Shown here: positions 32,201 to 64,000 of the stretch, in pieces
Layout: every line of letters begins with the position of its first letter
Numbering within the stretch: the first letter of the stretch is position 1
DNA from: Amoebophrya sp. A120
Lineage: Eukaryota > Protista > Dinoflagellata
Reading direction: 5' to 3'
Length of the DNA stretch: 64,000 nt
Assembly: GCA_905178155.1 (NCBI GenBank)
Contig: CAJINV010000015.1
Span: 1,237,495-1,301,494 of the forward strand
The notes under the pieces: generated by a model
What the model was told of the DNA's origin: nothing
Seen by the model: the letters and a program-made list of their open reading frames with translations, nothing else
Databases searched by the model: none
Made by a program: the position numbers and the translations under genes

Positions 32201-35200
32201 AGTGTAATTATAAGATCAGCTTCTTGCTCACACCGACTGAGCACGAAATTATACACGAATAAATCTATCTCTTTCTGGAGTAATATGGAGCCAGGCGGGT
32301 TCTATTTCTTGCACGGGATATTTGCAACTTTTCCTTTAATGTAGTTACTTGTTCTCGCAGTGTCTCGGCGAGCTCTCTTGCCACTCGCGCCTTTTCTAGC
32401 GCTTCCTGGCTGGCCTTCCTGTGCCTCTCCGCTTCCTTGAGAAGCTGCTCTTGACGGTGTTGGCTCTCCGCCGCATCCCGCTCCGCCTTTTCCTTCGCGT
32501 CCTGCGCTATTCGAACGCTGTCCTGTGCGGCTTTCTGCACGTCGTCGTGGCCCGCTGAGGCGACCGACAACCGTGCGTCGAGACTATCACGCGCAGCTAC
32601 CGCCGCTGCTAGCTCGCGCTCCTTCTCAGCAAGTTCATGATCCTTGTCGGCCAGAGCCTGTGCTGCCTTTGCCCTCTCCTCTTCCACCCTGGCGTCGGCC
32701 CTCGAATGAGCCTCGGCGAGACTCTCGTCGGACTGCCGCGCCCCGTGCCGAAACTGTTCCAGATCCGCCTCGGCCGCACGTAATTTCCGCTTCGCCAGCA
32801 CGCAGTCGCCGCCGCCCGATGATCCCTGCAGCCACTCTTCCACTTCGGCCCGGCAAGCGGCTTCGAGGGCCGGTTCTATCAAAATGAAAAATCCCCCCTC
32901 CCCATATCAAAACGGAAATTTGTGATGCTGATTTGTGGCCACAAATCAGCTTTGTATTGCAGAGAGGGACTGCGACCAGATCCCCAGGCTAGGTAGGGGC
33001 GTATGGGTCTAGCAAAACAGCATGGCAAACGGCCCCCCTTTAGGCCCAACAGCATGGCAAATCGCTTCCATAATGGGGCGGAAGCTCCTGCCCTTGTCTT
33101 CTTGCAAGACAGATGTGATTTGTGACCTCAAATCCGCAATGCAAATTTTTGGAGACATACCTTTTCAATATGGGGAGGGGGGATTTTTCTTCTCAATAGG
33201 TTCCGTGGTCACTTCGCTCGGGCTGTGGAACTCAGAAATGGCCGCATCGGTTATCATAGTGAAAAAAGCCCCCACCCCATATCGGAAACGGAAGATGCGC
33301 GAATTTGTGATGCTGTATTTGAGTACACAAATCGACTTGTATTGCTAGAATTCCAAGAGACGAAGCTGCGGCATACATTGCAGGTAATCTGTCATGCTGT
33401 TTCCCACTTCCAGCTGCCTCCTGTCATCCTGGAGCTGCAAGGCTCTCCCACGCTAGGCAGCACTACAGTTCGCATCTTTTGCCTTCTAGCATCACAAAGC
33501 TGATTTGTAACCACAAATCTGCATCACAGATTTCCGTTTTGATATGGAGAGGGGGCATTTTTCATTGTAATATCGGTCAAGGGCTTCCAGAGATCTCTTT
33601 CGAAGTCGGATCTACTTGCCCCCAACGTGCTGCTGGCGCTGTCAGCGTCGTACAGGCGCCGCGCTGCAGTCTTCGCTAGCGTGACCAGCGCAAACACCTT
33701 CGGGTAGGGTTGTTCCAGAGACGAGGGGGCGATTCCCGGTCCCGCGGCCTGGCTTCCCCCCGGGATGGGGTACTGCGAAGCCCCCAGCTTCAGATCAAGC
33801 GCGTCTTGGAAGTTTGGCGCGTCCACTGCACCGGACGAGGGTGTTCCGAGCACCTCGGCAAAGGGTTTCCGCCTCGGCGCCTGCGAGGCCTGTAGTAGCG
33901 GCGGCGTGCTACTTGCCCGCGCCACCAGCTCTTCTCCTAAGTAAAAACGTCCCCACCCTATAGTCCTGCTACACAAATCACCCACGTTCGGCTGTTGCGC
34001 ATGACAGGTTTGGCCTCGTAGCGTAATCCTGTTTAGCTAGTAGTTAAGCAGCATTACAGATGTAGAATAGCATGCTGATTGGAGCATCACAAATCCCGAA
34101 CACGATTAGAAAATGCTTCTCATAGGGCTCCGCATGAGCAACATTTTAAGCATGCACATTTGCATGACAACTAACTATGGGGTGGGGACGTTTTTCTTCA
34201 GGATAGCTCTGCCGCGGTGTTCAACTCCTGCATGACCCCTGGGCCCGCCCCCGCAGTTCTATGAAATGCAAAAGTGTCTGGGTCTCGAAGAGTCATGCTG
34301 TTTTTGCATGATACAGGAGGTCTGGCATGGAAGCTCTAGCATCACAGGTTTCGAGAAGCTTCCGCAATGCCGAATCCGCATGACAAGTCCCCCATTTTGG
34401 TGACAGAAAGTGGGAAGCTTTTGCTACCTATGCATGAGAGATTTTTGTGTGTTCTGAAATGCGCATCACAAGTTTGTATTCTTCCAGACCCAGACATATT
34501 TGCAATCCATAAGTTCCGGAGGAGACCAAATTGGACGCAGCCTGCCACTTCCACCATTCCTGCCCCGCGCGGTCGGGTGCGGGGGGCTTCAGCATGCCGA
34601 GGAACCGAAAAATCTTTTTCGTGTCTTCGTCCAGCAAAAACGAGTAAAGCTTCGGAAAATGCTGAAACCACCCTCCGTCAAGCAGTTCTGAGAGTTTTCG
34701 CTCGTACGGCGTCAGGTGACTCTGGAACCGTTGCATTGCTATTAACGCCACGCGCCTGCGGTCCGCCGTGTTTATGTCCTTGCCTTTCGTGCCACTGAAC
34801 GGAGGGGCCTTGCCCTGGGCTATCAAAGTGAAGAAAGGAGTGCCTCCACCCCGTACAAACGAAGAAAACTTGTGTAGTACTACTATGCTGGATTTATTCT
34901 TGCGCAGCCAACTTGTATTGCAGCAAGCGCTTGGCGGCATTTATTTCGAAGCCTGATAGTGTATGCAAAAGGCCGCTAGCAGTTAAGGCATAAAAGACAG
35001 CGGCTTCGCAGTAGGCAAAAGCGCGTCACAGATTGACTGTGGAATGCGCCAAACAGCTCCCACTACTTGCCCCATAGAATGCAACACAAATCTGATTTAC
35101 TGTGGTCACGAATCTTCACCAGCATCACGAAGTTCTTCCATTTTCTTGAGTACGGGGAGGGGAGCAGTATCAAATGTAAAAATGTCTGGGTCTGGAAGAA

Positions 35201-38200
35201 TTCATGTTTGTCATGCTTGTCTGGCATGACTCTTAAATCTGTCATGCACATTACCCAAGAGCTCCGTTTTTCTGTGATGCAGAAGCGCAGTTTGTCATGC
35301 AGAATAGGCAACACCTAGGACCTCAGAAACTTGTCATGCTGAGCCAGCATTTGTAGCCTCATCATGAGACGCCACCCAGCATCACAAGTTTCCAGACCCA
35401 GACATTTTTACATTTGATAAGCAGATTTTCGTCACGATACGGGCGGCGATCAGACCTGTGACGTAGGGCATCAGGTGTTGATATCCTGAGTAAAAACGTA
35501 CCCACACCATAGTCAAGATAGGGAATCGGCTAGACAAATCCACAAGCTTTGGCTGTTTTGCATGACAAATTCGGACGCGTATTGTAGTGCTGTTTGAGCT
35601 AGTTCAGCAGCATTACAGATCTAGTCTCTCATGCTGATTGGAGCTTGACAAATTTCAAAACACCATTAGAAAATGCTTCTCATGGGGCTCCGCATGAGAA
35701 ACATTTTAAGCTTGCAGATTTGCATGACAACTCTGGTGTGGGTACGTTTTTACTCAGGATAGTTGACGGGGCGCGGCCAGTGCACCTGGCCCCCCCTGTG
35801 CAGCTGCGCCCATGATCTGCACCTGGTTGTATTGAGCAACAGGCTGCAGCACCGAGAACCCCTTGAACGCCTGGCTCAAGGGGCTTCCGTGCACCGTGAT
35901 GGCAAAAGCCGCGTGTTGCAACGAAGCTTCTGCTTCTTTTCCGGGTACTACGGGAGAGAACTCCGCCTTCGCCGTGAGCGCCACTGCCTTCCCCACCAGG
36001 CTCACGTGACTCTTGCAGGCTGCAGACGCCGCCTCCGGGCGAGGCCATCGACCGACATCCCCGGAAGTCGTGGAGCTGCAGGTAAAGAACATGGCCCGCG
36101 CCAGCTCAGGCATCTCCGAGAGTTGCTTGTGAGTCACATCTGTGTTCGCTCCCACGACATCCTGTTGGGTCAGGCCAACCATCTCCTTCTGCGCCGCCAC
36201 CGCAGCGTGCTCGAGATACCGCTCCACCGTGTCCGAGAGCGCGCGCGTTTTCTGTGCCGGGGGGCCGTTGAGCAGATCCACCCCGAACCGGGCGGCCGAC
36301 TCCTCCAGGTTGCGCGCGAACTTCTCGAGCCAGGGCACGGCCAGGTTGTGACCGTGATGATATCCTGAGTAGAAATGTCCCCACACCAGAGTCAAGATGG
36401 GAAATCTGCTAGACAAATCTGTCAGCTTTTGCTGTTGCGCATGACAAGTTTGGCATCGTAGTGCAAGCATGCTTAGCTTGTTCAGCAGCATCACAGATCT
36501 AGCATATCATGCTGATTCTAGCATTACAAATCCCCAAACACGACTAGAAAGCCCTTCTCATGGGTCTCCGCATGAAAAACATTTTCAGCATGCAGATTTG
36601 CATTACAACTCTGGGGTGGGGATGTTTTTACAGATGATAGATGATTAATCTGGTTCAGCACGGGAAGCAGGTAGCTCGCCACAAACATCTGGTCCACGAA
36701 AATTCGGTCAACGAAGTGGTGAAACGCATCGTGCCCGTATCCTATGTAAAAACGTCCCCACACCATAGTCAAGTTGGGGAATCGGCTAGACAAATCCACA
36801 AGTTTTGGCTGTTTTGCATGACAAATTTGGATTCGTAGTGTAGTGCTGTTTGAGCTAGCTCAGCAGCATCACAGATCTAGCATACCATGCTGATTGGAGC
36901 ATGACAAATTTCAAAACACGATTGGAAAATGCTTCTCATGGGGCTCCGCATGAGAAACATTTTTAGCATGCAGATTTGCATTACAACTATGGGGTGGGTA
37001 CGTTTTTAAACAGGATAGCCCGCGGCTGCGGGTCATGAGCTGCAGCTCACTTGTCACGTAGTCCAGGTGGCCCACAAACTCTTGCGAGATCTTTTCCATC
37101 TCCACGTACAGCGCCGGAAGCTCGAACGGTTGCGGCCTCGGCGGAGTATTCCCGACGGACACGGTCGCGGTAGCGGTGGTTCCGACACCAATTCCCGAGG
37201 CGGGGGGACCAGCACCTGCTCCCAATCCGGAGTTAGATGAACCGACCCCCGCTTATGCATTGCAAATATGTCTGGGTCCTCTGGAAGAGTCCTCCAACTT
37301 GTGATGCTAAATCTCGACCAGATAAAAATCTGTATTGCATGGGTGCCAAGTCGTGCTGCCCACTTTTCGCTGCAAAAACGGCGAATTTCTTATGCGGGGT
37401 GAGCATTTTTAGATAGGAAGCTCCTTGTACTTGTTTCGCAAAACCTGTAATGCTTGGCGTGCAGCATTCCAGCAGATCCAGACCACTGATCTGTACAACG
37501 AGCAGAAGATGCATGTGACAAACAAGCGCACTCTTCCAGAGGACCTCCCAGACATATTTGCAATTGATACCGTTGCTGTTGTACTTCTCACGGGTCCTCG
37601 TGCTGTCCCTCCATCTCGTCCGTTCGAGGACCTCATGGCACTCTGCTCCAGTTCGCTCAAATACTGAAAGAACATGTTGCACTTTTCCTCCAGATTGTTT
37701 CCTTGGTGTTCTACATCGTCAGCCAGCCGCTCCATGGCCTCCTGTGCCGCGCCCCCCATCGCGCCGGCGTCTCGGAAGACTTGCTGCACGTGCGCGGCGT
37801 CTGGAATTACATATGACCCGCTCCTCGCTGGCTCAACATGTTGGTTGCACCAGTCTGCGAATCCGCCGTTTTGGAAGCTTGCTCGTGCCCTTTGCAGAAG
37901 TTCTCCGTAGTTCATACTAAGCCCCGCCTGCGGGTCAACGTTTGCCTTTGCTGGAAGCACTCCGGGGTAAAGCGTCTTCTTTATATTCGAGTCGATGTTG
38001 GCCAAGATCGTTCTCGCAACGTCGGGCCAGTCCTGGTCGGAATCCAGTCTCTGCCCAGTTTTCTGGCAGTACCTCTCGAGATCCTCTCGGGCCTGTGCTG
38101 GGAGGAAACGCAGCGCGAGGCTCCGCGACTCGGCTTCCCGCGTCTGCTCCTCCGTAGGATCGGCACTGTTGTAGAGAGTTTCCAAAAGGTTCTCGCAGGC

Positions 38201-39454
38201 CGGTGCCGGGCCTTGGTCCGCCGCCAGGACGTCGTCGGCAAGGCTGTATTCTTCCAACCAGCGGTCGAATGATTCCAAGACCGGCAAGGTCGTGGTGGGG
38301 CTTGCAGCGTCCTCTCGGAAGGGATTTCCAGACTCGCTGCACCTGCGATATTCGTCCTCAGGCCGGTCTCCGGCGAAGTTCAACTGCCCACACCAAAACT
38401 GCAACAGTGTGTGGGAGAAGTCTTTGAACATTTGCCTCGGAAGGTGCTGGTGATCATGGTCCTCGACACAGGTTTGCTTCACGAAGTCCTCTCCCGCGTT
38501 CGGGTAATCTCTCGAGAGCGCACTGAAGACGCGCACCACCCTCTTGACTAAACCTGACTCGGAAATGCCCTCGTCGGCGTCCGCCCACCGGTCCAGGAGA
38601 GGCGAGCAATTGTCAGCGAACATGGTGTCGACTGGCGACAAGCCTCCCTCGTCGTCCTTCTGAGACACAACTACAGGGTCGAAATACGTTTCCATCCACT
38701 CGCCCAAGCTCGCCGCTGACGGCAACACTGGATTATGCGCCGGAAGATTTTTACCGAAGGGGTTCTCGCGGGTGCAGCGGTCACGATGATCTCCCTGGAA
38801 AACGTCGCTGCACCACGAATTCAAAACGAGTTTGGCGAACTCCACGAACACCAAGTACCATTTGCTTTCTTCTATGACCCGCGCCGTACAGACGCCATCA
38901 AGTGACCGCCAAAAAGCATCATAGTCCTCCTGCGTGGTTCGTTCTCGAAAGACCTGATTTGCGACTTGGAGCACATTGTTCACCAGGTCCGCGGGATCGT
39001 CTGTTGCTCCCGGTACGTGACTTAGCATGATTTCGCACGCGGGAGGAAGCCAGTTTTGTTCCACTTCTCCCTCGTGCCAGCCATAATCGTCCTGGGGCGC
39101 ATCATAGTCGTAGTCGGAGGGATGAAACTCCGCTGCACTAATAAACGCCCCGCCCTGGTGGTGAGCCTGGTCGTGTACTTCTTCTGCCCAAAATTCATCT
39201 TCCGGGGGAATCGCTCCTTCCGCGCCAGCAAACTCTTCCGGGAAATAAAGTTGTGCTCGGTGCTGCCTCTTGTTCCCCCGCGTCCCGGACACAAAAGGCG
39301 TCGCGCTTTGAAGAAAATTATACTCCTGCAGAAGAGAAACCGCTCCTTGCAGAATGAACCCGGACGACAAGAAGTCGCGCTTCTTGCACCACCTCAAACG
39401 CCACGGGACCATTTGGGAGGTGTTCCGTGGGCGCAGTAGAGGTTTTGCGACCAT
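6817..39454 (-). CDS. Very large multi-exon gene: Cys-repeat N-terminus, coiled coil, array of helical-repeat exons, Pro/Gly-rich C-terminal region
   Basis: The frame can be traced from ATG 39454 through introner-bounded exons to ~28940. It then continues via phase-1 GT-AG exons whose lengths are all multiples of 3. Linkage below 27 kb and the exact 3' end are inferred. Confidence 0.6.
9607..9942 (-). CDS. Helical-repeat exon, phase 1-1, 112 aa
   Basis: CAG|AA ... ACAG|GTGAGG, 336 nt, open. Confidence 0.7.
11440..12540. mobile_element. Degenerate family-A introner interrupted by a 762-bp insertion
   Basis: Left end tatcaaatgcaaatacgtctgg, right end cagaccc...tttgcatgtgata; ~284 bp once the insertion and one 55-bp repeat are removed. 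Confidence 0.5.
11506..12267. mobile_element. Foldback-like insertion flanked by a perfect 55-bp direct repeat
   Basis: Repeat at 11451-11505 and 12268-12322; GAGAGGGTCC-like array (~11800-11970) faces a CCCTCTC array (~11985-12240); hairpin at 11579-11599. Confidence 0.7.
13305..14522 (-). CDS. Helical-repeat exon, phase 1-1, 111 aa, split by three introners
   Basis: Removing 14174-14447, 13787-14114 and 13448-13715 (each +5 nt) leaves 333 nt open: GQMRELGGEYATRQQQLE...FVIPLDNAVGRGEGVL...LAANRQG. Confidence 0.7.
13448..13715. mobile_element. Introner family A
   Basis: TIRs; DR tcttc/tctgc; frame restored. Confidence 0.85.
13787..14114. mobile_element. Introner family C, degenerate
   Basis: tataaaaatgaaaaaaagccccc...ttttcctcacagta; 328 bp; frame restored. 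Confidence 0.6.
14174..14447. mobile_element. Introner family B
   Basis: TIRs; DR tctac/tctgc; frame restored. Confidence 0.8.
16131..16478 (-). CDS. Helical-repeat exon, phase 1-1, 116 aa
   Basis: TCAG|AG ... ACAG|GTAAGG, 348 nt; motif LGNLGDNVRTRE. Confidence 0.72.
17176..17458. mobile_element. Family-A element inside a canonical intron
   Basis: Degenerate TIRs; DR gtagg/gtact; empty paralogous site at 22670-22674. Confidence 0.65.
18130..18444 (-). CDS. Helical-repeat exon, phase 1-1, 105 aa
   Basis: TTCAG|AA ... GCCG|GTAAGA, 315 nt; motifs NWQRRNSLL and HHSTELQTLGTAW. Confidence 0.75.
20660..21019 (-). CDS. Helical-repeat exon, phase 1-1, 120 aa
   Basis: CTCAG|GC ... GACG|GTAAAG, 360 nt; motifs LEHNVRERENLL and THGAMLLRH. 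Confidence 0.75.
23152..23544 (-). CDS. Helical-repeat exon, phase 1-1, 131 aa
   Basis: TACAG|CC ... GCCG|GTATTA, 393 nt; motifs LQGNVNFRHTLL and THDALYRFH. Confidence 0.72.
23899..24281. mobile_element. Family-A element inside a canonical intron
   Basis: gtctgggtctgg and ccagacccag termini; DR ttggc/ttggt. Confidence 0.6.
24447..25228 (-). CDS. Helical-repeat exon, phase 1-1, 150 aa, one introner
   Basis: Removing 24512-24838 (+5) gives THDEMYQRHSAEVDRLETAWLGQVRKKLDE. Confidence 0.75.
24512..24838. mobile_element. Introner family B
   Basis: tatcctcagtaaaaacgtcccca...tggggacgtttttgctcaggata; DR cgttg/cgctg. Confidence 0.85.
25919..25975 (-). CDS. Charged linker micro-exon, phase 1-1, 19 aa
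   Basis: TGTAG|CC ... AAAG|GTAATT; ARAEEERRLKEAEEQNNQK. Confidence 0.6.
26342..27045 (-). CDS. Helical-repeat exon, phase 1-1, 129 aa, one introner
   Basis: Removing 26428-26739 (+5) gives THVAMYTRHASEVTDLQAGWVEQIQRKLNEA. Confidence 0.75.
26428..26739. mobile_element. Introner family B
   Basis: TIRs; DR tcgtg/tcgca; frame restored. Confidence 0.8.
27212..27465. mobile_element. Family-A element, probably within an intron
   Basis: TIRs; attct on both flanks, offset by 1 nt. Confidence 0.7.
27720..28649 (-). repeat. Tandem duplication (~310-bp unit, 2 close copies plus 1 diverged) of an intron and an E/R/K-rich micro-exon
   Basis: 27720-27860 is nearly identical to 28030-28175; exons 27883-27987, 28200-28316 and 28593-28649 are all phase 1-1 and 3n long. 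Confidence 0.8.
29101..29416. mobile_element. Introner family B
   Basis: DR cgtcc; gives LQGNLD-ERKRL. Confidence 0.85.
29727..29973. mobile_element. Introner family A
   Basis: TIRs; degraded DR tcctc/ttgtc; frame restored. Confidence 0.8.
30151..30415. mobile_element. Introner family A, degenerate
   Basis: TIRs; DR tgtcg/aggcg; frame restored. Confidence 0.75.
30948..31109. mobile_element. Introner, minor family I
   Basis: tatcccagaaaaaaaagcaggcagg...cctgcctgtctttttctgggggata; DR tttcg/tttct. Confidence 0.8.
31587..32320. mobile_element. Oversized (734 bp) introner-like intron
   Basis: tatcctgttcaaaaaacgaaccc...gggttctatttcttgcacgggata; no clean DR, but removal +5 keeps the coiled-coil frame. 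Confidence 0.5.
32877..33198. mobile_element. Introner family C
   Basis: tatcaaaatgaaaaatcccccctccccata TIR; DR ggttc; 322 bp. Confidence 0.9.
33252..33572. mobile_element. Introner family C, opposite orientation to its neighbour
   Basis: DR tcggt; 321 bp. Confidence 0.9.
33933..34205. mobile_element. Introner family B with a TCT left terminus
   Basis: DR gctct; frame restored. Confidence 0.85.
34260..34511. mobile_element. Introner family A
   Basis: DR agttc. Confidence 0.9.
34821..35439. mobile_element. Degenerate family-C introner hosting a nested family-A element
   Basis: DR tgggc/cgggc; removing the whole unit gives GLIAA(R/Q)GKAPPF. Confidence 0.8.
35168..35419. mobile_element. Family-A element nested in the TIR of the family-C introner
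   Basis: Perfect long TIR; DR agcag; 252 bp; close inverted copy of 53331-53582. Confidence 0.9.
35482..35761. mobile_element. Introner family B
   Basis: DR gttga; 280 bp. Confidence 0.92.
36361..36639. mobile_element. Introner family B
   Basis: DR gatga; 279 bp. Confidence 0.92.
36738..37017. mobile_element. Introner family B
   Basis: DR gcccg; 280 bp. Confidence 0.92.
37254..37569. mobile_element. Introner family A
   Basis: DR ccgct/ccgtt. Confidence 0.85.
37570..39454 (-). CDS. First large exon of gene 2 (acidic, two Cys/Trp repeats)
   Basis: 686-aa ORF 37409-39469; its last ~53 codons run into introner 37254-37569. Confidence 0.85.
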
Positions 39455-42400
39455 TTGGTTTTTCAACAAAAATCTGTCATATCTGGTGGGAATAAAAAAT
39501 TTTCTCGGGGAAAACGTATTTTTCAGGATTTCTTCAAAATGTTTTAGTTCTGCGCCAGACTCCAGATACGCACAGAAATCAAGAACATCGGTTCAACATC
39601 TACTGACTTCTGTGCGCGGGGGAACCTCCGTGTTGTAAACTAAAGTACTAGTAGTGTCAGCTGCTACCACTTTTTTCCGAGGGGACGGACGGCGGGAGAG
39701 ATAGGTAAGCCTCCACTGCTAAGCAACTACCGCTTATTCATTTTGTAACAGAAAGTCCTAAATTTTCAAGCAAAAAAGTTGCAAACAAATTTTGTATGCT
39801 CCAGAATTCTTAGGGGGGTGAAAAATGTTTCGACGTTTTGTTTCTGATGATACAAAAACTGGTCGGTGGGATGAAAAAGCTAATTTTTATTGGGATTTCA
39901 AAGAAAAATCTTGTTTTCTTGAGAAGAAGACGGTGGACGAGCACGTGCAATTAGAAAGAACGACGACTTGTACGAAAGTGGCGGATGTACCTCTGAAACA
40001 GGACGATTGTACCGATTGAAAGCTTCCAAAAAGAATGATGAAAATGAGGACGACAACAGACTAGAAGAATCTTTTCCATGAAAATAACGACTCAACCGAC
40101 TGAAACCAAGTACTGCCCGGGCTGCTTGTGTAAAACGACACTTGTTTTGTGTCAAACGAACGAGAGAAACCACATCACTGTTTTGTGTAAAACGCGGAAC
40201 CGACGAGAGAAACCACATCACTGACCGACAACACAATCAGAGATACTATAACCCGATGTAAGTAAAAGCGGAAGAAAAAGTCACACCGTCTCCCAACAAT
40301 TCGGCAAACGAACGAACAGCACACTGTATACGGAAAGACGCTCTGTCAAAACAGGCACACTCTCCTGCGCCACGGTAGTTGGTGAACTCGTCCAACTACA
40401 TCAACTACAGCTGCGGGGGATGAATTTTGATGTTCACATACTTTTACTATAGATTAAACAGAGTTCATTTACTGAGAAACGAGCGAATATCAAAGTTGAG
40501 CACTGTCATCTAGAAGTTGCAGCACGAGCTGCAAGAGCTCGCTCATGCGACAGTTTGAGCGGCAGGAGTAGTCCTGCGGTAGAAGTTCTTTCGATCATTC
40601 TTTCTGTCTGTTCTAGAGTCTTTCTCGACTTCTTTTTGTACTTAGTGGAAATAAAACAGGAATAGCACGGCGAATAATTATCAACGGGACTAGAAATAAA
40701 TTTAGAAGGACGCTGCTACCACTCGTATTGCTTCTGTAATTATTAGGTCACAACAGTTGTAAAGAGGAAGCTACTTGTTCTGCTGGTGGTGCTGGGTGGC
40801 GGAGGTCGTGGTGGTGGTGCACCCCTTTTTTAGGAGTTCTCGTTCACCTCCTCTCCTTTGACATCTGGTGCTGTTGATGTCAGGTCGACGTTCGAGAGGC
40901 TGTTGTAAAAAGAACCAGGACTTCTCGACAAAACCTGCCAGTCCGTCCTGATCTAATTCCATTGCAAGAATTCTTCTATGGAGGTGGTGTACTGTTGAAG
41001 CAAGGTGGAGGTTGTTTACAACTGGTTTTTTATTGAGGGATAGTAGAAAAGAGAGTCCTAGAAGTAGATAAGTTCTGTCAACCTGCGCGACGATGTCGCT
41101 CGTCTCTGGGTCTGCTTCGCTTTCGTCGAAGTCGAAACAAAACCCCGTACGCAGGTGAAGTGTGTGGCTTCGAGAAATAGATTTTGCTTTTTAACAAAGA
41201 GAGTCCTGCTAAAGACATGGGTGAACTTGAGTTCATCTCGTACTTAATACCAAATGAGGATTCGAAAGAAAGCTGATGACGTTTTTACATATTCATATCA
41301 AACCGACGCTGCACCTGCTGCGCTGTGGCCCGCCCCCGCCACTACACACACTGCATTTGCGCTGTTTCGTTGCATTATCGTCTTCTGCTGGTAAAATTGA
41401 ATTAAGTATTGACTTTATCTGACTGAAATTTCTTAGCTGTTGATGTTTCGAAGGTATTGATGATTGACTGTTTTTTTGATTTTTAGCGTGAAGTTTTTTT
41501 TTTTTTTTTTTTGCCAAGGGAGGACTGGATCAAGCATGGACAGTGGTCCACTTTCCTGACTACTAGAAAAAAATCTTACTCATTCGCAAAATGGTTCTGC
41601 TCAGGATCTCATTGTTGGTTGCGCCAGCAAGGGGGATAAAAATAAGGCTGGTACGCGGATACAGGTGCAAGGTGTCACAGTGTGCCAAGCAGATTCAGAC
41701 CAGAGGCGCAGCACCCCCCGCGCCCCGGCCGGGCCCCGCGCGCTCCCCTTCCTGGTCTGGCCTCACTGGATGAAGGGAACGCAGGGTCTGTCTTGTTCTG
41801 AATCTGCCTGCCAAGCACTTGACGTTCACACCCCCAACAACAAGCTCCCTTTCCTTAGACCGATTTCTCTACTATATAAAATGATCCTCCCGGGGTTGAT
41901 GCCCCAGCCGCACATATAAAACTGAAGCCATTTGCCTTGACGCGAGGCTGTTGCAATCAAGCAACTCATGACCAATAGCCCCTCATACAATGCGTCGCAG
42001 CGGTCTTCCCGGCTAGTGCAGAGCATACTCAATTCACCACCTTTTTTCCCGTCCACTAGCTGCTGCACCTTGTCCGGCCTATACTTATGGAAAAAAGCAG
42101 TAACTGTGCGCAGTTACTGCTTTTCATTTGATACTCTTATCTTTTTACCCTGGGTCTATTTTCCATGCAAGACAGGTTTGAAACAGATTGCGGCCTCCCC
42201 CCACCTGTATTGCATACCTATCAAAATACAAACTGAAGCACATTGATTCTGGCTTCTCATGCTTGACTAGCAGCAGAGTCGTTTTTCTTTGAAAACTGCA
42301 ACAAGTCGCCCACGATCCACCGACGCAATGGCCCAGAAAGCAATCTGTTTCTCCCCTGTGTATAATGTCCATCATGTAAAAACAAGATCAGCAACACACA

Positions 42401-43084
42401 CCCTACAAAGAGAGTGTGTGCTCGACCCAGGGCAACTAGATTTGTCGGACTCCTATCTGGTTTCTTGCGCGCTGGTTGCTGATAAAGTCCAGGAAGAGCT
42501 TGGCCTCATTTTCAAAAAAATAGAATATTACGGAACAGAAAAACAGAGCTTGCCTACATTTTGGAAAAAATTGGTCATCTTCAAGGATGCGCCTCCCCGT
42601 CAACGGGGAGGCGCTCGCATCTTGTTCTTCAGAATATTTTTCTTTTGCTATTTTCATGTATATCTTCAACCAAACAGACAAACACCTTATAGCAGCAGAG
42701 GACGTTGACGAACGAAAAATACGCATCGCAGATTAGAGATAAACACGCGCTTACCGATTTATATTGTAGTACCTAGACCGAGTTGAGTTCGAGATGTAAT
42801 TACGACCCTGTCTAATGTTTACGACCCTGTCTAATGATTACGATGATTTTTAGTGTGAAGTTGTGAAGTAAATTCGTAGTTTTTGCTATAGAAAGAAACT
42901 GATGGTGAAGTTGTTCGTGTAGTACTATTTTGCGTTTCAGAGGTTGTAAACTAAGATGATATTCTTTAAAGTGTGCTACATGGAGAAGCACTGTGTCTGC
43001 TAAAGAACTAGTAGTGGTTCTACTCTCCGTTTTGTCGTCCTTGCTGTGGTGTACGTCTGCTATTTCTCGTCTCTTTCTAGCAAA

Positions 43085-52000: not shown

Positions 52001-55000
52001 TAAACAGGATAAGCAGATGGATTTGTAATGCGGCTGCCCACGCTAATCTGCACTACAGTACGAACTGAAATCTGGCATGCGTGACCCCCAAAGCTTCTAG
52101 GTTTGTGTTGCAAAATCCCCATCCTGACTCTGGAGTGGCGGATTTCGCTTTGATATGCAGATCCCGTTGGTTTGCGAAAACTTGAAGTCTTGTGGGGCAA
52201 TCAACTTCAAAACACCCCCGGAATTCGGCGTGGGCAGATCGGGGGAGATGGTATTCCGGGGCTTCAAGTCGAATTTCACCGGAATATGCCGAATTTCGTT
52301 GGCGGGCGACCGGGCCGTGGACCTGAGGTGTTACTTTGTTTTCTTCACATCGCGTCTCGAACTTGTCATGCTACTTTAAGCATGAATGTGAACCAACAAT
52401 GTTCATGCAATTGTGCAAGAAAAAACAAAGGGCGAACAAACTGTCAATCTACACACCAGCATAACAAACATCCTCGTAGTAGTACCTCGTTTCCACGTTC
52501 GTCTCTGTGAACGTCCAGAGCACAAAACCCGGCATCAGCTCGTTTACCGAAGACTCGCCGTTGAATTCCAAAGCGTAGTTGTTCTCGGCTGGAGTGAACT
52601 CCGGGTTCGACTTTATCCCGATGCGGAACGCGTACAGCCGGGCCGCTTCCAGATACACCTTGTCCTTTGGCTGGACGGTAAACACCGCGGTGTTTTTGGA
52701 GCCCCGACAGTATGGATTGCAAATTTGTCTGGGTCTGGAAGAAAGGAACCTGTGTTGCGTGTCTTAGATTTTTCGTGTAAAATCTGTATTGCGTGACCAG
52801 GAAATAAAGGAGCCTTCTTTTGTCATGCAAAAGCGCAGCTTCTCATGCGCACTACGCATGAGAAAGTGTCCGAAACATTTGTCATGCTTGGTCGACCCTT
52901 TCAGGGGTATGCTCAATCATCGCCACCCAGCATCACAAGTTTCCAGACGCAGACAGTTTTGCAGGTCATAGACAGTAGGTGATCTCGATATCGGTCGACC
53001 ACACGGTGTAGTCCGCCGGCATGGGCTGGCCGCCGAACACCGTTGTGGGCCGGACCTCCAAGACTGACAAACAGTCCTCGTAGAACAAAAACCCCTCGGG
53101 GGCGCGAATGCTCATGTCGTAGGTAGAGACCACGGGGTTGGTCTGCGGCTTCGCGTCCTTATTGAGTTTGAAAGAGAAAATCAAACTGTTCGGTCGCAGA
53201 GGCCGGTCGTCGCGCCCGGTCGCGAGCCGCACCGGCTCGTCACTAGGTTGATCGAGAAGCAGCAGCCTCGCCTCCATCATTCTCTCATTCACCGGAAAAC
53301 TAGTGGCCGCGATCGGTCTATCTTGCGAAGTATCAAATGTAAAAATGTCTGGGTCTGGAAACTTGTGATGCTGAATGGCGTAGCATGAGGAGGCCACAAA
53401 TGCTGGCTCAGCATGACAAATTTCTGAGCTTTTAGGTGTTGCCTATTCTGCATGACAAACTGCGTTTCTGCATGACAGATAAATTTGTCTCTTGGGTAAT
53501 GTGCATGACAGATTTAAGAGTCATGCCAGACAAGCATGACAAACATGCATTCTTCCAGACCCAGACACTTTTACATTTGATACGAAGACGCGGCGGACGC
53601 GAGCGAGGTGGCAACCTGTAGGATCATGTGTGTTTTTTTATTGCGTGGCTTTGTCTTGTACAGTTTTCTGTGAAGCAGAGACAGCAACAGAAACTAGATT
53701 CGTCATGCACTTTGCAAAGCAAAACACCACAAAAATACCGTTGTGTCGGACGCCGTACTGAAATCCCAGCACATGGTATATCCGCAACTGCTCGACACGC
53801 TTGCCGCCTGCGAGACCGCCAGCGTTGGGTTCTTTGCGATGAGCACAAACCCATACGTCGCCGGCGGTAGCATATCCTGTGCAAAAGTTAAAGTACTCGT
53901 AGGAATCCCAATCATGCATTACAAATCTCCTTCTTAACCTCAATCCGCATTACAAATTTCATTTTTCATGCTGAGGGAATTTGTCATGCGATTTCTACTA
54001 GTGCGATGCTTTTGCATTTCATAGAGCACCCCCTGGGCCGAAGTGATCCGCAGTTCGGGTCGAGTCGCGGTTGTCAGCAATCTCGTCGGAACAGCTCCGT
54101 CGACCGAATCATCTTCTTCCAGCAGTTCTCTCGGCGGCGACCATACGGAGCACGTCGTCCCCGCCGGAAGGTCCACCGTCCCCTCCGGTAACGGCCGAAG
54201 GTTTTCCAGCCCGCAGTTCGCCTTTTCGTACAAATACCCCGTTGGAGAGATCAACACGAGCCCCCCGTTTTGCGGTAGTTGCGTGACCGTCCCGATCGTG
54301 AACGATAACCTGTTCTCCCGGTTCGCGACGTTGGTACTGTACCCCACCGACGCAGACGTCAACGCCCTAATTTTCGGGGCCGGAATGACCCCGCCAAACG
54401 GCCTGGTGGCGAGGGTGGTGCCATCGTAACCAAATTCGACCGTGAAATTTGCCATGGACCCGTGCGGTGCGTAATTCGGCACTTGTACCGGCACTTTGAA
54501 GCCGTAATGTTTGTTAGCGGTGGAGAAGTCGTAGGTCGTTGGGTTCGCGAAATTCAACACGTGTAACGGCCCCACGGTCGGCGCGTTGGTGTGCGGAAAG
54601 TCGGCGGACGCACTGGTGCTGTAAAGCGTTGCGGACGGCCCGGAATTCCGGTAGGCCCACTTAGTTCCCGGCTTCCACTCGTAGTATTGAATGCAAATAT
54701 GTCTGGGTCTGGAAGACTCATGCTGCTTCTGCATGACACAGAAGGTCTGGCATGGAAGTTCTAGCATCACAGATTTATCCGAGAAGCTTCCGCAATGCCG
54801 AATCCGCATGACAAATGCCGCTCGATTTTGGCGACAGAAAGTGGGCAGCTTTGGCTGCCTATGCATGAGAAATTTTTCCGTGTTGTGAAATGCGCATCCC
54901 AAGATTGCATTCTTCCAGATTCAGACACATTTGCAATGCATAGGTAGCCAAAGGGCGCGATAATCCGGAGTTTCACGTTGGTCAGAGTCATGGGCAAGTT

Positions 55001-58000
55001 TCGCACGAAAAACGTCAGATCCGAGTACACGTTGGACAGGGCGAATGGTCGCATGTCATTGATCGACAGGTCGTATCCTGTACAAAAGTATCGCACTCGT
55101 ACTAATTGCAATTTTGCATGACAAACCTACCTTTTATTTTAATACCTGAATTTTTAGCATTACAAATTCCATTTTTCTTTCTGATAAAATTTGTAGTGCA
55201 GTTTGTACTAATACGATACTTTTGCAATGCATAGGTCGCACCGAATTTCCTGCGGCGTGTTTAAATCGTAGTTGTACAGACCAAAAGATCTGCCGCTCAA
55301 ATCCGTGTAGTTCGTCGTTCCAATGCCCTCCGTTAGCGCGATGGTGCCCTGCCCCGAATCGAAGACCCCGTCGAAACTGCCGTCGACGTCCCGGGATTGC
55401 GAATCCTGCGTAAACATCTTATGCATTGCAAATATGTCTGGGTCCGAAAGGATGTAACTTGTGATGCTGCATTTGGACACTACGAACATCTGTATTGCAT
55501 GAACAGTAAAACAGGTCAAGTTTTTGCCACGGCGAAAGGGCATTTCTCATGCGGTTTAGGCATCAGGGAGACCTCACAAAATCTGTGATGCTAGGGCATG
55601 CATCACAGACGTCAGGAGTCATGCAAAATGTGCACGACAAACCTTTCATCCTTCCAGACCCAGACATGTTTGCATTTGATACATCTTCCAGTTGACCAAC
55701 TGTGTCACGTCGAAGACGTACGGGTTGATCGACCGCAATATGGATTGCAAAAATGTCTGGGTCTGGAAACTTGTAATGCTGCGTTGGGAATAATGAATGC
55801 CCTGTAATGCACAGCCAAGCATGGGAAATATCTGCGCTTCTTTGTGTTGCGTTTTTCGCATGACAAGCTGTGTTTTTGCATGACAGGCAAAAGGGTCTCT
55901 TCTTGGACACGCATCACAAACTTTTTGGTCATGCCAGACAAGCATGACAAATCTCGCAATCTTCCAGACCCAGACATTTTTGCATTTGATACGCAAGGCG
56001 AACCCGAACTTCTTATTTGCGTCGATGATCCCGCTCACCTGCACCTTCGCCCGGTTCCTGGGGGTTCGCTCGTAGATGCACTGCTTCACCCCGTTTGGTA
56101 AACGGTGGGTCAATTCCCCCGGTCGAAAGGCGTAGTACTCCATCGGCAGATCGTATCCCACGAAAAAAGTGTTACAGTTACACATTTGCTCTTAATTCAG
56201 CAACACAAATTTTCTCCGCATGAGAGAGAAAACTTGCAACGCACAGATCATAAGGGAAAACAGGTATGTTGACACGAGGCCCAAAAGCCTTTCTGGCATG
56301 ACAGAGGTTGTCTGTCATGCTGGGCCTGCAACACAATGTGTAACTGTAACACTTTTTTCTCGTGATAGATCGCTGGCGTGGCAGTTCGGGTAGTCGTATT
56401 GGAACCGAATCGACTGCATTTCGTTGTATCCTGTGTAAAAACGTCCCCACCCCAGAGTTAATGTCATGCAAATGTGCAATGACAGGAACATTTGTAATGC
56501 GGATCTGCATGAAAGGCATTTCCAATCATCGTGTGTGGGACTTTGTAATGCTGTATTAACAGGATGAGAGGCTGGCTTTCTCATGCGACTGCCCTTGCTA
56601 AACAGCACGACGCTGCAGATGGAAAATTGTCATGCAAAACTCCCAAAACTTGGAGATTTGTGTTGCAGATTTACCAACTTGGCTATGGGGTGAGGACGTT
56701 TTTCCACAGAATACGTTGACCACGTTATCCATCGGCGCTTGCAACACGATCATGCCCTCCAGCCCGACCGGGGATTCTGTTTTCAGAAACACGAATAACT
56801 GCGGCCGCACCACCCGGTTCGACAACTGCGCGCCCATAAAGTCCGACGGGTGGAGGATGGTGTCTCTCAAATACCCCAAAACCGCGACGTTGCTGCTGTA
56901 ATTTGCCTCAATGGTCGCTTTGAAGATGACCGGACTCGTTGTCATGGGCAGGCTGAAATACCCTTTGGACATTTGCGACACCGTCCACTCGTTCAGTTTG
57001 TTGTCCTGCGCGAGGGCCGTCGCGGGGTTATTCACCGTGAATTTCACAATGATCGCGGACCCGGAGGGAATTAAGCCGTACTGCCTCAACCGAAACCGAC
57101 ACAACCGCGGGTCGCTCGCGAACACGCTCCAGCCGTGCGAGGTGACGCCCGCCACGTACTCACTGGTGGTCGGCGCGCCCCGGCCCTGCGGCGCGGTGTG
57201 CGCATAGAGATTTAACGTCGACTCCGCCGCCCAGGGGTTGTACGCGGTCGCGAGAATGCCCATTTGGTCCGGAATGGTGCAGTTATACCCCGGGGGGAGT
57301 CGCACATCGAACCCGGCGTCCTGGTTCAAATTGGCGGCGAACAAGGTCGCCGCAAACTGCAGCCGCACGTAGAGGATGTTCGAGGTTTGCGCCTTAAACG
57401 GGCGGGAATTCCCGTCGCCGAAGCTGGTCACGATCTTCGCGATGGTGGTGCCCGCGTCCGGCTCCTTGTACAGGTAGTTGTTGTTTCCGGAGAGAATGTA
57501 CGACGGCCTCGTATCCAACTCGTCCGTGACCTGAGCGCCTAATCTCGTGGAGAAAAACCCGTTCTTCGGCATGGTCAGGTGCTGCACCCGCAACTGCATC
57601 TTCACCGACCCCTGAATCGTGGTCATGATCGCCGGCATGGTGATCTTCACGACGTTGTTGTAGCTGTTCAGAACCGTCGGCACGCCCTGGCAGTTCTGCG
57701 CCGGGCCTCCCTGGTGCGCCACCGCGTCGTAGGGGATGGCGGTGGCGAGACAGGTGGAGCCGATGTTCCAGGTCGTTAGAGGTTGGAGATACAGCCGGAT
57801 AATCGCGCCCTGCTTGATCTGGTAAGTCGGGTCGCCCGCCAGTTCCATTCGCAGTGCGTCACCGGACACCAACGTGACAACGTTGTCCTTCGACTGTCCC
57901 GGGTAGTCCTCGAGAATCCGCACCCCGCCCGGGTTGAGCCACCGCGGACTGGTGACGGAAGTGGAAATTCGCTCCGGCGTCTTCGACAAAGCAGCCTCTC

Positions 58001-61000
58001 CCCGCTCGATAGCCAAGTACGGGTTAATCCCCCGGTCGTCCATCGTGAACACCTCCAGATATTTCCCTCCCGCGGTGGCAGCGCCGTGAACGGATCCATG
58101 CATCACCACCTGGTAGTTGTATCCGGGTCGCAAACCGTTCTTTGCTTCAAAAACGACGAAAATCTCCCGCGTGAACCCGTATTTCTTGTAGTAGCACCCC
58201 TTGGGCAGCGGGAACCCGTAGTCCAGGTCGTCGCTCCACATCTCCCGGAATAATCGCCCGCAGATGTACTGCCTCGCCTCCTCGTAGTCGTCCTCGGACG
58301 CATTTTATCCCACGAAAAAAGTGTTACAGTTACACATTTGTAGTGAATTCAGCAACACAAATTTCTCTGCATGAGAGAGAAAACTTGTAATGCAGAAATC
58401 CTACGGGAAAACACCTAGGAAACGAGGCTCCTGTGCATACCCGGCATGACAGAGCTTGTCTGTCTTGCTTGGCCTGCAACACAATGTGTAACTGTAACAC
58501 TTTCTTCTTGCGATACATTTGCCTCGATACTCGAGGCGATGTCGTCGCTGTAATAGATCTCGAACGTGCTGGTGTCTTGCAACACAAATTTCAGCTGCGT
58601 CTCGCCCACGACCTGACTGTACCGCGCGCCGGTGGTCGCAGAAGCGGTCTTAAAGGAAATCACCACCGGAGCTTTGGCGTCGAGCAGGGTGGACGTGAGG
58701 GACAGCCGCACGTCTTGCATCGGGTTGGCGCCGACCAGGGTAAGGAAACCGACCTGATAAAGGGTGGTTGATGAAAAGTTCGATAAAGTCAAAGAACCAT
58801 GATTCGTTTGCCAGCATGAGAAATTGTACCCACCATGCTCTGTTTCGCATGACAACAAAACAGCTTCAAGAAAACGAACGACCCCAATGTTCATAGTACT
58901 TACATAACTTCTACAACCTGCGGCCAGTACCTCTTCTACAAACCGATTCGGGTCGGTCCCTCCGTAGTGAAAGCACACCCGCAAATTCGTTCGGTCCCGG
59001 ACTCCCTTGATTTCCCACTTGGTCATCGCCCGATTTCGCCGGGCCCACTGCCCGTATACGGGGCTCGAACCCGCCGTGATGGACGCGAATTGCACCTGGA
59101 ACAACGGCCGCCCGTTCTCTCCCGCGGCACACGCGTTGGGCGGCGGGGGATTTCCTGTGGAGTAGCAATCCGCCTTCCACCCGTACTGTATACGCCACTT
59201 CAGCGGGTCCGTGGTCGGTTTGATTTTGTGCCCCACCATGTAACTGTCGGTCGCGGCCGCGTTGTTGGCCCCGGCGTCACTGTAAGTGAACACGCCCTTC
59301 AATTCCATCAGCTTCTCATTACTGCATTGGTACGAATTCGGATGGCAGATGATGTTATCCCCTAGGGTAATCACGTCCGACCCGTCTTGCGCGAATTCCG
59401 GGTCGAGCTCAAACTCCACCTCCGTTTCGGTATCGGAAATCGCAGTGACCGACCGTATGTCGTTTCGCTTGCAATTTTCGAACTTGTCGTCGCAGTTGAA
59501 GGTGGAAGAGGTTGTGATCAAGGTTTTCAGATCGCCATTAACCGTGTCTGTGATCGACCCAACATTTGTCGCGAATTCGGGCGCATCGACCTGCAAATAG
59601 GTGAAGGGGTAGGAGCCCTTATCTGGATTTCGGTTGTTGTCGCTGCACTTGCCGTCGCCGGAGATTATCCTTAATTTGTTATCGCTCGATAACCCGAAGC
59701 CAAAATACTCCAATTTGAAGACCACTTGCGTCGAGAAACTCCAATTGTGCCCGGCGGTCGGCCCCTTGATGGTCATCCGCGCGGCCAGGATCCAGTAGTC
59801 CTTGTGCATGCACCCGTTGCTGTTCGCATCCGCGAACTGGCAGTAGCAGATCCCGATCACCCCGGCCTTCTTGATCGTGATTTTGTTCGCCGAATTCCCC
59901 GCGTTGAACGCCAACCGATCGCTGTTCACGCCCTTGCCCCGGTAATTTGTGTAGGCGCTGGCGGCGGAGAGACCGCCGACCGGCTCGACTAGGTTCGCCA
60001 AATGCTCGTTGTTGTTCGTCTGGCACTGCGCATCGGACCCGTGCGCGCCGGTCTGCTATCCTCAGTAAAAATGTCCGCACACCGGAGTGTTCAAGATGGG
60101 AAATCTGCTAGACAAATCTACAAGTTTTGGCTGTCCTGCATGACAAATTTTTTAGACTCGTAGTGTAGTGCTGTTTGAGCTACCTCAGAAGCATCACAGA
60201 TCTAACATATCATGCTGATTGGAGCATGGCAAATTCCAAAACACGACTACTAGAAAATGTTCCTCATGGGGATCCGCATGAGAAACATTTGCAGCATGCA
60301 GATTTGCATTACAACTATGCTGTGGGGACGTTTTTCAATACGATATCTGCTCGATGATCTTCACGACCCCGTTCTCCGCCAACCCCATCACCTCGTTGTC
60401 GGCCGCGTCCCTTCGGAACACAATCTGCCCAGGCTCTAACACGTATTGGAGGGACAACAAGTTTGCGTTGCTCGCGGTCGGACTAACGGACGACAACAAC
60501 CGCACCCCCGTGAACCGAATCTGCCCCACTTTGAACCAGTTCGCGCCCGCGTCCTGCGTGCACAGCCCGTCGCAGTAGCAGATGTCTAACCCGACGGAGT
60601 TGTGGAAATTCACCCTCTCGTAGTCGTGTTCCGCGGCGTCGAACTTGAAGCCCGTGGTATATGCGATGGTGGACAGCGATATGGGTGTGTCAGGTTCGAA
60701 ATCGACAAAGTTGAAATAATCTGTGATGCATAAAACGCAAGGCATGAAGTGCCTCTCTTGCAGGGATGGCAAGTGAGACCGATTCTTGTGAGCCTGTTTC
60801 GGGTTTGTGATAGTTAGAGCTGGTAAAGTGGCGTGACAAAGGATGCCTTCTTTCGCTAAACAGCATGACAAACTGGATTTCGATGACGTCGAAATTTGTC
60901 ATGCGACGCTTGGAAATTGGGCCTCCAACTGGTATCGGTTTTATGCATCACAAATTTTTCAACCTCGTCAATTTCAATCCTGACAGTTCCATAAGCGGGT

Positions 61001-63998: not shown

Positions 63999-64000
63999 AA

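What the first reader, a model, noticed from the sequence alone, without database searches (positions are those of the whole stretch)
32877..60345. The same introner families sit as introns in both orientations
Seen: relative to minus-strand hosts, family C is inverted between the adjacent copies 32877-33198 and 33252-33572. Family B is inverted between 60057-60345 and 48229-48507/46490-46768, and family G between 43239-43434 and 45599-45829. The frame is restored in all cases. Known: spliceosomal introns need strand-specific donor, branch-point and acceptor signals. Inference: the signal here is symmetric (terminal RNA stem plus direct repeat), which points to a structure-guided or atypical mechanism.
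Basis: partly seen in the sequence, partly recalled or inferred. Interest (0 to 1): 0.85.

Follow-up and report, generated by a model that had tools for sequence, protein, structure and literature searches.

The report
Reversible transposon introns without GT-AG
Small mobile elements with mirror-image ends sit as introns in both directions inside the genes of what is likely a parasitic marine microbe, mostly without normal intron borders, and are likely cut out by a machinery that reads their folded, symmetric ends; the elements are already described, but I found no report of their two-way use.

Summary
Mostly confirmed; the elements are known. They are 150-360-bp TAT…ATA inverted-repeat elements with 5-bp target duplications, matching the non-canonical introners of Amoebophrya A120 (PMC7789003; organism inferred). 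Family G is not inverted. Removing element+5 nt gives a 3,743-aa frame (33 elements, plus 8 hand-placed GT-AG introns) and matches one RNA contig's exon sums exactly (9 introns, including opposite-orientation A and C copies). Inverted B copies lack RNA evidence. In a second assembly, 174 exonic copies split near 50:50 in the six largest families, targets match background, and only 15 of 174 could use GT/GC/GA-AG. So the orientations do not carry their own conventional signals, unlike two-way introners of Aureococcus and Polarella. Symmetry follows from inverted ends and cannot separate stem-reading from sequence-reading. TAT and ATA are conserved, positions 4-10 pair poorly, and the direct repeat decays. 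Two single sites put the 5' cut 1-3 nt before TAT. The scan earlier noted similar hairpin introns in two other dinoflagellates, not their orientation.

The parts
32877..33198 (-). Family C introner, orientation 1; perfect 5-bp duplication
   Evidence: removal fits RNA contig exon sum
33252..33572 (-). Family C sister subfamily, orientation 2
   Evidence: global 176 vs 127; profile +58.0 vs -26.4; RNA exon sum
33933..34205 (-). Family B introner, orientation +, 3' end mutated ATA to AGA
   Evidence: RNA exon sum
34260..34511 (-). Family A introner, orientation opposite to 37254
   Evidence: profile -86.9 bits; RNA exon sum
34821..35439 (-). C-like introner carrying a second introner (35168-35419) inserted 20 nt inside its 5' arm
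   Evidence: whole unit absent from RNA contig by length
35482..37017 (-). Three family B introners, orientation + (35482-35761, 36361-36639, 36738-37017)
   Evidence: RNA exon sums 793 and 324
37254..37569 (-). Family A introner opposite to 34260; its mismatched duplication limits the cut register
   Evidence: profile +58.9 bits; RNA piece starts at 37570 with 0 other letters
28000..39859 (-). Host gene 1 (3' end not mapped): frame of at least 1,973 aa with coiled-coil-like C-terminal part and 14 element introns
   Evidence: 8,966-nt RNA contig
30151..30415 (-). Older element with 3 of 5 duplication matches; keeping the whole upstream copy makes a TGA stop, so the 5' cut must lie before TAT
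43239..43434 (-). Family G introner, same orientation as 45599
   Evidence: RNA joint 43233>43435 skips 201 nt
43899..44238 (-). A-like introner
   Evidence: RNA joint skips 345 nt at depth 984; unspliced contig at depth 10
45599..45829 (-). Family G introner, same orientation as 43239
46490..46768 (-). Family B introner, orientation -
   Evidence: frame need; 0 indels across junction in 2 of 2 covering homologs; no RNA joint seen
48229..48507 (-). Family B introner, orientation -
   Evidence: 0 indels in 2 of 2 covering homologs; no RNA joint seen
50953..51274 (-). Family C introner, 87% inverted copy of 32877
   Evidence: homolog alignment has 1-2 aa indels here; no RNA joint seen
60057..60345 (-). 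Family B introner, orientation +, in the same gene as the - copies
   Evidence: 0 indels in the 1 covering homolog
43083..64000 (-). Host gene 2: 3,743-aa open frame (open at window end) with 33 element introns and 8 hand-placed GT-AG introns, ending in a hydrophobic segment; start coordinate approximate
   Evidence: homologs 36-51% identical to its longest exon, relatives in Symbiodinium, Effrenium, Durusdinium

Best explanation
These are non-autonomous transposon-like elements that sit in exons in either direction behind a 5-bp duplication and are likely removed from the RNA by a modified spliceosome that would find the paired inverted ends and cut at a fixed distance from the terminal UAU and AUA. 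Shown: both orientations, removal of element+5 nt, no use of target sequence, conserved TAT/ATA at both ends. Inferred: the core stem (positions 11-28) brings the ends together; the 5' cut lies 1-3 nt before UAU (most likely 1, giving N-U-A-U, which mimics the G-U-A start of all 8 GT-AG introns of gene 2 with a relaxed first base) and the 3' cut 4-2 nt after AUA; the cuts are 5 nt out of register, so one duplication copy is lost and the protein is unchanged. The direct repeat is a transposition footprint that makes insertion harmless, not a splice signal. Orientation-blindness is then automatic.
For: Opposite-orientation A copies (34260, 37254) and C copies (32877, 33252) are absent from one RNA contig with exact exon sums 793=793 and 324=324. 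Orientation counts in a second assembly: 20/30, 17/13, 3/7, 6/6, 4/7, 3/3. 168 of 174 copies would break the frame if kept. Target composition equals phase-matched background (p>=0.06 at all 5 positions). With termini relaxed, 186 of 191 keep TAT and 186 of 191 keep ATA, against 4.4% decay per position of the duplication. Families with unrelated arm sequences, some lacking the AAA motif (49656, 60680, family G), share only TAT…ATA and self-complementarity. Arm positions 11-15 pair with the far arm with predicted probability >=0.5 in 41 of 42 sense strands. The nested copy leaves the outer stem intact in the predicted fold. Register: keeping the whole upstream copy gives a stop at 30151; the RNA piece at 37570 excludes cuts 4-5 nt upstream. 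Most spliceosomal proteins and U2, U4, U5, U6 are reported for A120, U1 not found (PMC7789003 section 10).
Against: No direct sign of selection on RNA pairing near the ends: positions 4-10 are 65% Watson-Crick, G-U vs A-C 104 vs 102 and 28 vs 31; only positions 16-28 lean to G-U (58 vs 39, 22 vs 17). Complementary arms are expected from transposition alone. No lariat, branch point or spliceosome dependence was tested. The register rests on two single sites and assumes one register for all; a codon-likeness test on 49 mismatches was uninformative. RNA support comes from one contig set that is RNA only by guess and shows presence, not efficiency; inverted B copies and 50953 have no RNA joint in view.
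Confidence: 0.5

Rival explanations
1. Pure sequence read-out: spliceosomal factors recognise TAT-N7-AAA at the 5' end and its mirror TTT-N7-ATA (a short U-tract) at the 3' end; the stem is a by-product of transposition.
For: TAT/ATA and AAA/TTT are conserved while positions 4-10 pair poorly and show no G-U excess; 33 of 42 have AAA on both arms. Precedent for broadened U2AF/snRNA recognition in the tunicate Fritillaria (PMC13326754 abstract).
Against: 4 of 42 copies lack AAA at positions 11-13 on both arms yet must be removed, and one of them (43239) has an RNA joint; TAT alone is too short to define an intron end.
Confidence: 0.25
2. Non-spliceosomal excision: a protein endonuclease/ligase (or domesticated transposase) cuts the hairpin RNA at staggered sites, as proposed for euglenid nonconventional introns.
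For: Complete symmetry; no invariant first or last intron base in the allowed registers; both TAT and ATA equally conserved; U1 not found in A120. Euglenid stem-loop introns are thought to be spliceosome-independent (PMC8219788 passage).
Confidence: 0.2
3. The joints are reverse-transcriptase jumps across hairpins between direct repeats (a known artefact, recalled), or one orientation is not really spliced.
For: Hairpin plus direct repeat is the classic setting; RNA evidence is contigs from one run; no RNA joint was seen for inverted B copies.
Against: 31 of 33 and 168 of 174 copies would wreck conserved frames if kept; the spliced protein aligns with intron-free homologs across both orientations; copies with 2-3 of 5 repeat matches still need removal; unspliced contig depth 10 vs 984 at 43899.
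Confidence: 0.04

Closest known systems
Introner elements (IEs) of Amoebophrya sp. A120 (Farhat et al. 2021, PMC7789003; read: abstract, sections 10-12, passages of 16, 17, 32, 36, supplement text hits; figures not seen)
   Same: TAT + 7 variable nt + AAA arms, 3-5-nt direct repeats, about 240-260 nt, many families, non-canonical borders, co-oriented genes, proposed hairpin and alternative splicing mechanism.
   Different: Nothing structural. The paper's main text and supplement text do not state element orientation relative to the host (4 and 3 hits for 'orientation', those shown all about genes; 0 for 'strand') and leave the cut position open.
Two-way introners of Polarella glacialis (bioRxiv 10.1101/2020.10.14.339549, passages) and Aureococcus anophagefferens (Huff 2016, seen only as summarised in PMC10228655 and the preprint)
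   Same: Transposon-derived introns with target duplications that create introns in either orientation, some in several registers.
   Different: They carry or co-opt GT/GC/GA and AG from the element or the duplication and show orientation bias; here no site is co-opted (15 of 174 possible) and the large families are near 50:50.
Euglenid nonconventional introns (review PMC11282704 and PMC8219788, passages)
   Same: Terminal stem, repeats at junctions, non-canonical borders, proposed MITE origin.
   Different: Different conserved motif (CAG/CTG near the ends), unrelated lineage; orientation not discussed in the passages seen.
Fritillaria borealis non-canonical introns (PMC11282704 passages; PMC13326754 abstract and passages)
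   Same: Inverted repeats and duplications, removal by an adapted U2 spliceosome.
   Different: Preferred polar borders (AG-AC, AG-AT), U1 kept, duplicated U2AF.

Membership tests
Amoebophrya A120 introner elements | Inverted repeat joining the intron's 5' and 3' ends | tested here: met
   Arms of 16-73 nt in 43 copies, longer than the 8-20 nt exact motifs of the paper
Amoebophrya A120 introner elements | Direct repeat of 3-5 nt at the borders | tested here: met
   Perfect 5-mer in 32 of 42 window copies and 255 of 332 in the second assembly
Amoebophrya A120 introner elements | TAT, seven variable nt, at least three A | tested here: met
   Both arms in 33 of 42, one or both in 38 of 42
Amoebophrya A120 introner elements | Repeated families, non-GT-AG borders, absent from RNA | tested here: met
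   11 element introns absent from RNA contigs (9 by exon sums, 2 by joints)
Amoebophrya A120 introner elements | Genome is strain A120 | not tested
   Inferred from the strain-specific motif and dinoflagellate homologs
Aureococcus/Polarella-type two-way introners | Intron creation in both orientations | tested here: met
Aureococcus/Polarella-type two-way introners | Canonical splice site carried by the element or co-opted from the duplication | tested here: not met
   15 of 174 and 5 of 42 possible; duplication composition at background
Spliceosomal intron | Lariat, branch point, U2/U6 dependence | not testable with these tools
   No lariat or perturbation data
MITE / non-autonomous DNA transposon | Inverted ends, fixed-length duplication, short, multicopy | tested here: met
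MITE / non-autonomous DNA transposon | A cognate transposase | not tested
   No whole genome is held; PMC7789003 reports none in A120

The most novel reading that the evidence does not exclude
Amoebophrya A120 has a fully non-polar intron class: a UAU…AUA hairpin is excised in either direction from any target sequence at a fixed 5-nt stagger, with no invariant first or last intron base, by a U1-less spliceosome or a new RNA cut-and-join enzyme, so that a transposon can insert anywhere in an exon at no cost to the protein.
Probability: 0.45. Interest if true: 0.8.

Novelty: new variant of a known kind. Interest (0 to 1): 0.5.

Why it matters
How Amoebophrya removes its majority of non-GT-AG introns has been open since 2021. 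Orientation- and target-independence rule out co-opted splice sites, the route used by other two-way introners, and explain how these elements could fill exons so densely. The result narrows the signal to a few terminal bases plus, probably, a stem, and gives natural test cases: inverted near-identical pairs, decayed duplications that fix the cut register, a nested copy and a copy with a mutated end. It does not reveal the machinery, and the elements and the hairpin idea are published.

Tried and rejected
No whole genome is held, so no genome-wide count. No listed holder is on record as RNA; X1 was treated as RNA because it lacks a CT..AC intron. Of 4 runs laid, X4 showed none of the three splice joints and X8 laid 134 mostly partial reads; only 15 of 2,083 joints were shown. 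No read data were obtained for 52,401-64,000, and no joint for 44,240-52,400 was in view. The window's own annotated protein was not found in two homolog searches. No match in viral contigs. An apparent A excess at the centre of the duplication (18 A vs 3 T) vanished against phase-matched background in 174 copies. The gapped G-U vs A-C count (59 vs 89) was a double-counting bug, corrected. Codon-likeness and stop-codon tests in the second assembly did not fix the register. DNA-level excision rejected: the DNA-like run X5 has contigs through the elements and 0 support at the three joints. Host-strand-specific ends rejected: end variants follow the element's side (p=0.0008, 0.0006 in two families), not the host's (p=0.43, 1.0). 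One GT-AG intron of gene 2 (49210-49321) was chosen after three other options failed to keep the frame. Huff 2016 is not held; the Current Biology version of Roy et al. and Henriet 2019 were not read.
Full report
Observation. All seven intervals are elements that begin TAT, end ATA, have inverted arms and are flanked by a 5-bp duplication. The window holds 41 such pairs against 0-2 in each of 10 shuffles. I modelled 42 in two minus-strand genes; 32 have a perfect duplication. Orientation was judged on interiors with the arms removed (null maximum 30 in 600 shuffles). Family B has 5 copies each way with 0 of 37 inconsistent edges; 60057 is inverted to 46490 and 48229 within one gene. Family G is not inverted (44 vs 22; 142 vs 85).

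Are they introns? Gene 2: removing 33 elements plus 5 nt each and 8 hand-placed GT-AG introns gives 3,743 aa; keeping an element truncates the frame in 31 of 33 cases. One GT-AG intron was chosen after three other options failed. The product aligns with three intron-free homologs over 2,000+ residues each; junctions at B- copies 46490, 47257, 48229 and B+ copy 60057 show no indel in the covering homologs, while 56427, 51877 and 50953 lie in gappy parts. Gene 1: an 8,966-nt contig of run X1 maps in pieces, and the gaps between pieces equal the exon sums predicted with element+5 removal, 793=793 and 324=324, over 9 introns. Two of these introns (33933, 34821) I found only after a first sum did not fit; their borders were set by arms and duplication. 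This transcript contains opposite-orientation copies of A (34260 -86.9, 37254 +58.9) and of C. Direct joints are seen at 43239 (skips 201) and 43899 (skips 345; depth 984 vs an unspliced contig at 10), with 0 support in the DNA-like run X5. Limits: X1 is RNA by guess, only 15 of 2,083 joints were shown, X4 showed none of these joints, X8 barely mapped, and no RNA joint was seen for any B- copy.

Larger sample. A pattern search returned 171 loci (538 kb, overlapping) from one public assembly with the same families at up to 97% identity; whether it is the window's strain is unknown, and the sample is biased to family A. Of 332 distinct elements (0 in 469 kb shuffled), 174 got a confident exonic strand call and 158 were dropped; calls agreed within loci 123 of 123. 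Orientation counts for the 12 families of 3 or more (loci only): 20/30, 17/13, 3/7, 6/6, 4/7, 3/3, 5/0, 1/3, 4/0, 2/1, 2/0, 2/1. The 5/0 family (7/0 with the window, p=0.016 uncorrected) has a sister subfamily in the other direction. 168 of 174 would break the frame if kept.

What is the signal? Not conventional sites: GT/GC/GA-AG is possible in any of six registers for 15 of 174 and 5 of 42 copies, and the duplication matches phase-matched background at all five positions. Not host-strand-specific ends: base counts of the two arms match, and end variants follow element side, not host side. Probably not the direct repeat: 38 of 870 positions have decayed, and copies with 2-3 of 5 matches still need +5 removal to carry gene 1 to 1,973 aa. 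With termini relaxed, 186 of 191 copies keep TAT and 186 of 191 keep ATA (the search still favours intact copies and missed 33933, whose 3' end reads AGA and which is removed). Arms pair at 65% in positions 4-10, 88% in 11-15 and 91% in 16-28; G-U vs A-C on the sense strand is 104 vs 102 (positions 1-15) and 58 vs 39 (16-28). So selection for RNA pairing is not shown. In favour of a stem: unrelated arm sequences, some without AAA, share only TAT…ATA and self-complementarity, and the nested copy at 35168 leaves the outer stem intact in the predicted fold.

Register. At 30151 keeping the whole upstream duplication creates TGA, so the 5' cut precedes TAT. At 37254 the RNA piece keeps position 2 of the upstream copy, excluding cuts 4-5 nt upstream. 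If one register holds, the 5' cut is 1-3 nt before TAT. The 1-nt option gives N-T-A-T, and all 8 GT-AG introns of gene 2 start GTA. This is a two-site inference plus analogy.

Mechanism. I favour a modified spliceosome that uses the paired core to define the intron and the terminal UAU/AUA to place cuts 5 nt out of register (0.5), over pure sequence read-out (0.25), a non-spliceosomal enzyme (0.2) and artefact (0.04).

Known work. The motif TAT-N7-AAA, the 3-5-nt repeats, the hairpin and the missing U1 are described for Amoebophrya A120 (PMC7789003). Two-way intron creation is reported for Polarella and Aureococcus with canonical or co-opted sites, and a survey allowed opposite-orientation insertions when clustering (PMC9860276 passages). 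I found no statement on orientation of Amoebophrya introners in eight library searches, in PMC7789003 text and supplement text, or in passages of PMC12130899, PMC11282704 and PMC11453091. Figures, the Current Biology version of Roy et al., Huff 2016, Henriet 2019 and preprint supplements were not seen and may cover it. Earlier scan notes describe single hairpin introns in two other dinoflagellates; none exist for this genome.

Verdict. A real, well-supported but largely expected property of a published intron class, with one of three examples wrong. Its value is in ruling out co-opted splice sites and in making the open mechanism testable. Interest 0.5.

Noticed in passing
window 34821-35439 (inner 35168-35419): An introner inserted 20 nt inside the 5' arm of another; the 624-nt unit is absent from the RNA contig. 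Either the inner leaves first or the outer stem forms around it as a three-way junction.
   Followed up: partly
all families; e.g. window 43239 vs 45599, 50953 vs 51877: Arm positions 4-10 are 76.5% identical between nearest neighbours whose interiors are 91.9% identical, and the same 7-mers recur across up to 5 families: ends seem to be exchanged between elements.
   Followed up: partly
174 loci copies and 42 window copies: The duplication starts at codon position 3/2/1 in 88/53/33 copies (p=1.6e-6) and 23/10/9 in the window, with no clear base preference to explain it. In the 1-nt register this is a phase-0 excess.
   Followed up: partly
window 49210-49321: A GT-AG intron that holds a decayed piece of the 45965/53873 element family without its ends; other GT-AG introns hold the same GCATGACAA motif. 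Possible conversion of old introners to canonical borders (seen by eye).
   Followed up: no
window 58730-58950: An AT-richer stretch with GT…AG-like ends reads through in frame in my model; may be an unmodelled intron.
   Followed up: no
window 43083-64000: Large protein of unknown function with a likely signal peptide near residue 153 and a C-terminal hydrophobic segment; homologs of 1,300-3,300 aa in dinoflagellates and marine metagenomes, most without Pfam hits.
   Followed up: partly
window 22000-29000: Duplicated exon-intron blocks and elements with decayed duplications in the 3' part of gene 1; not modelled.
   Followed up: no
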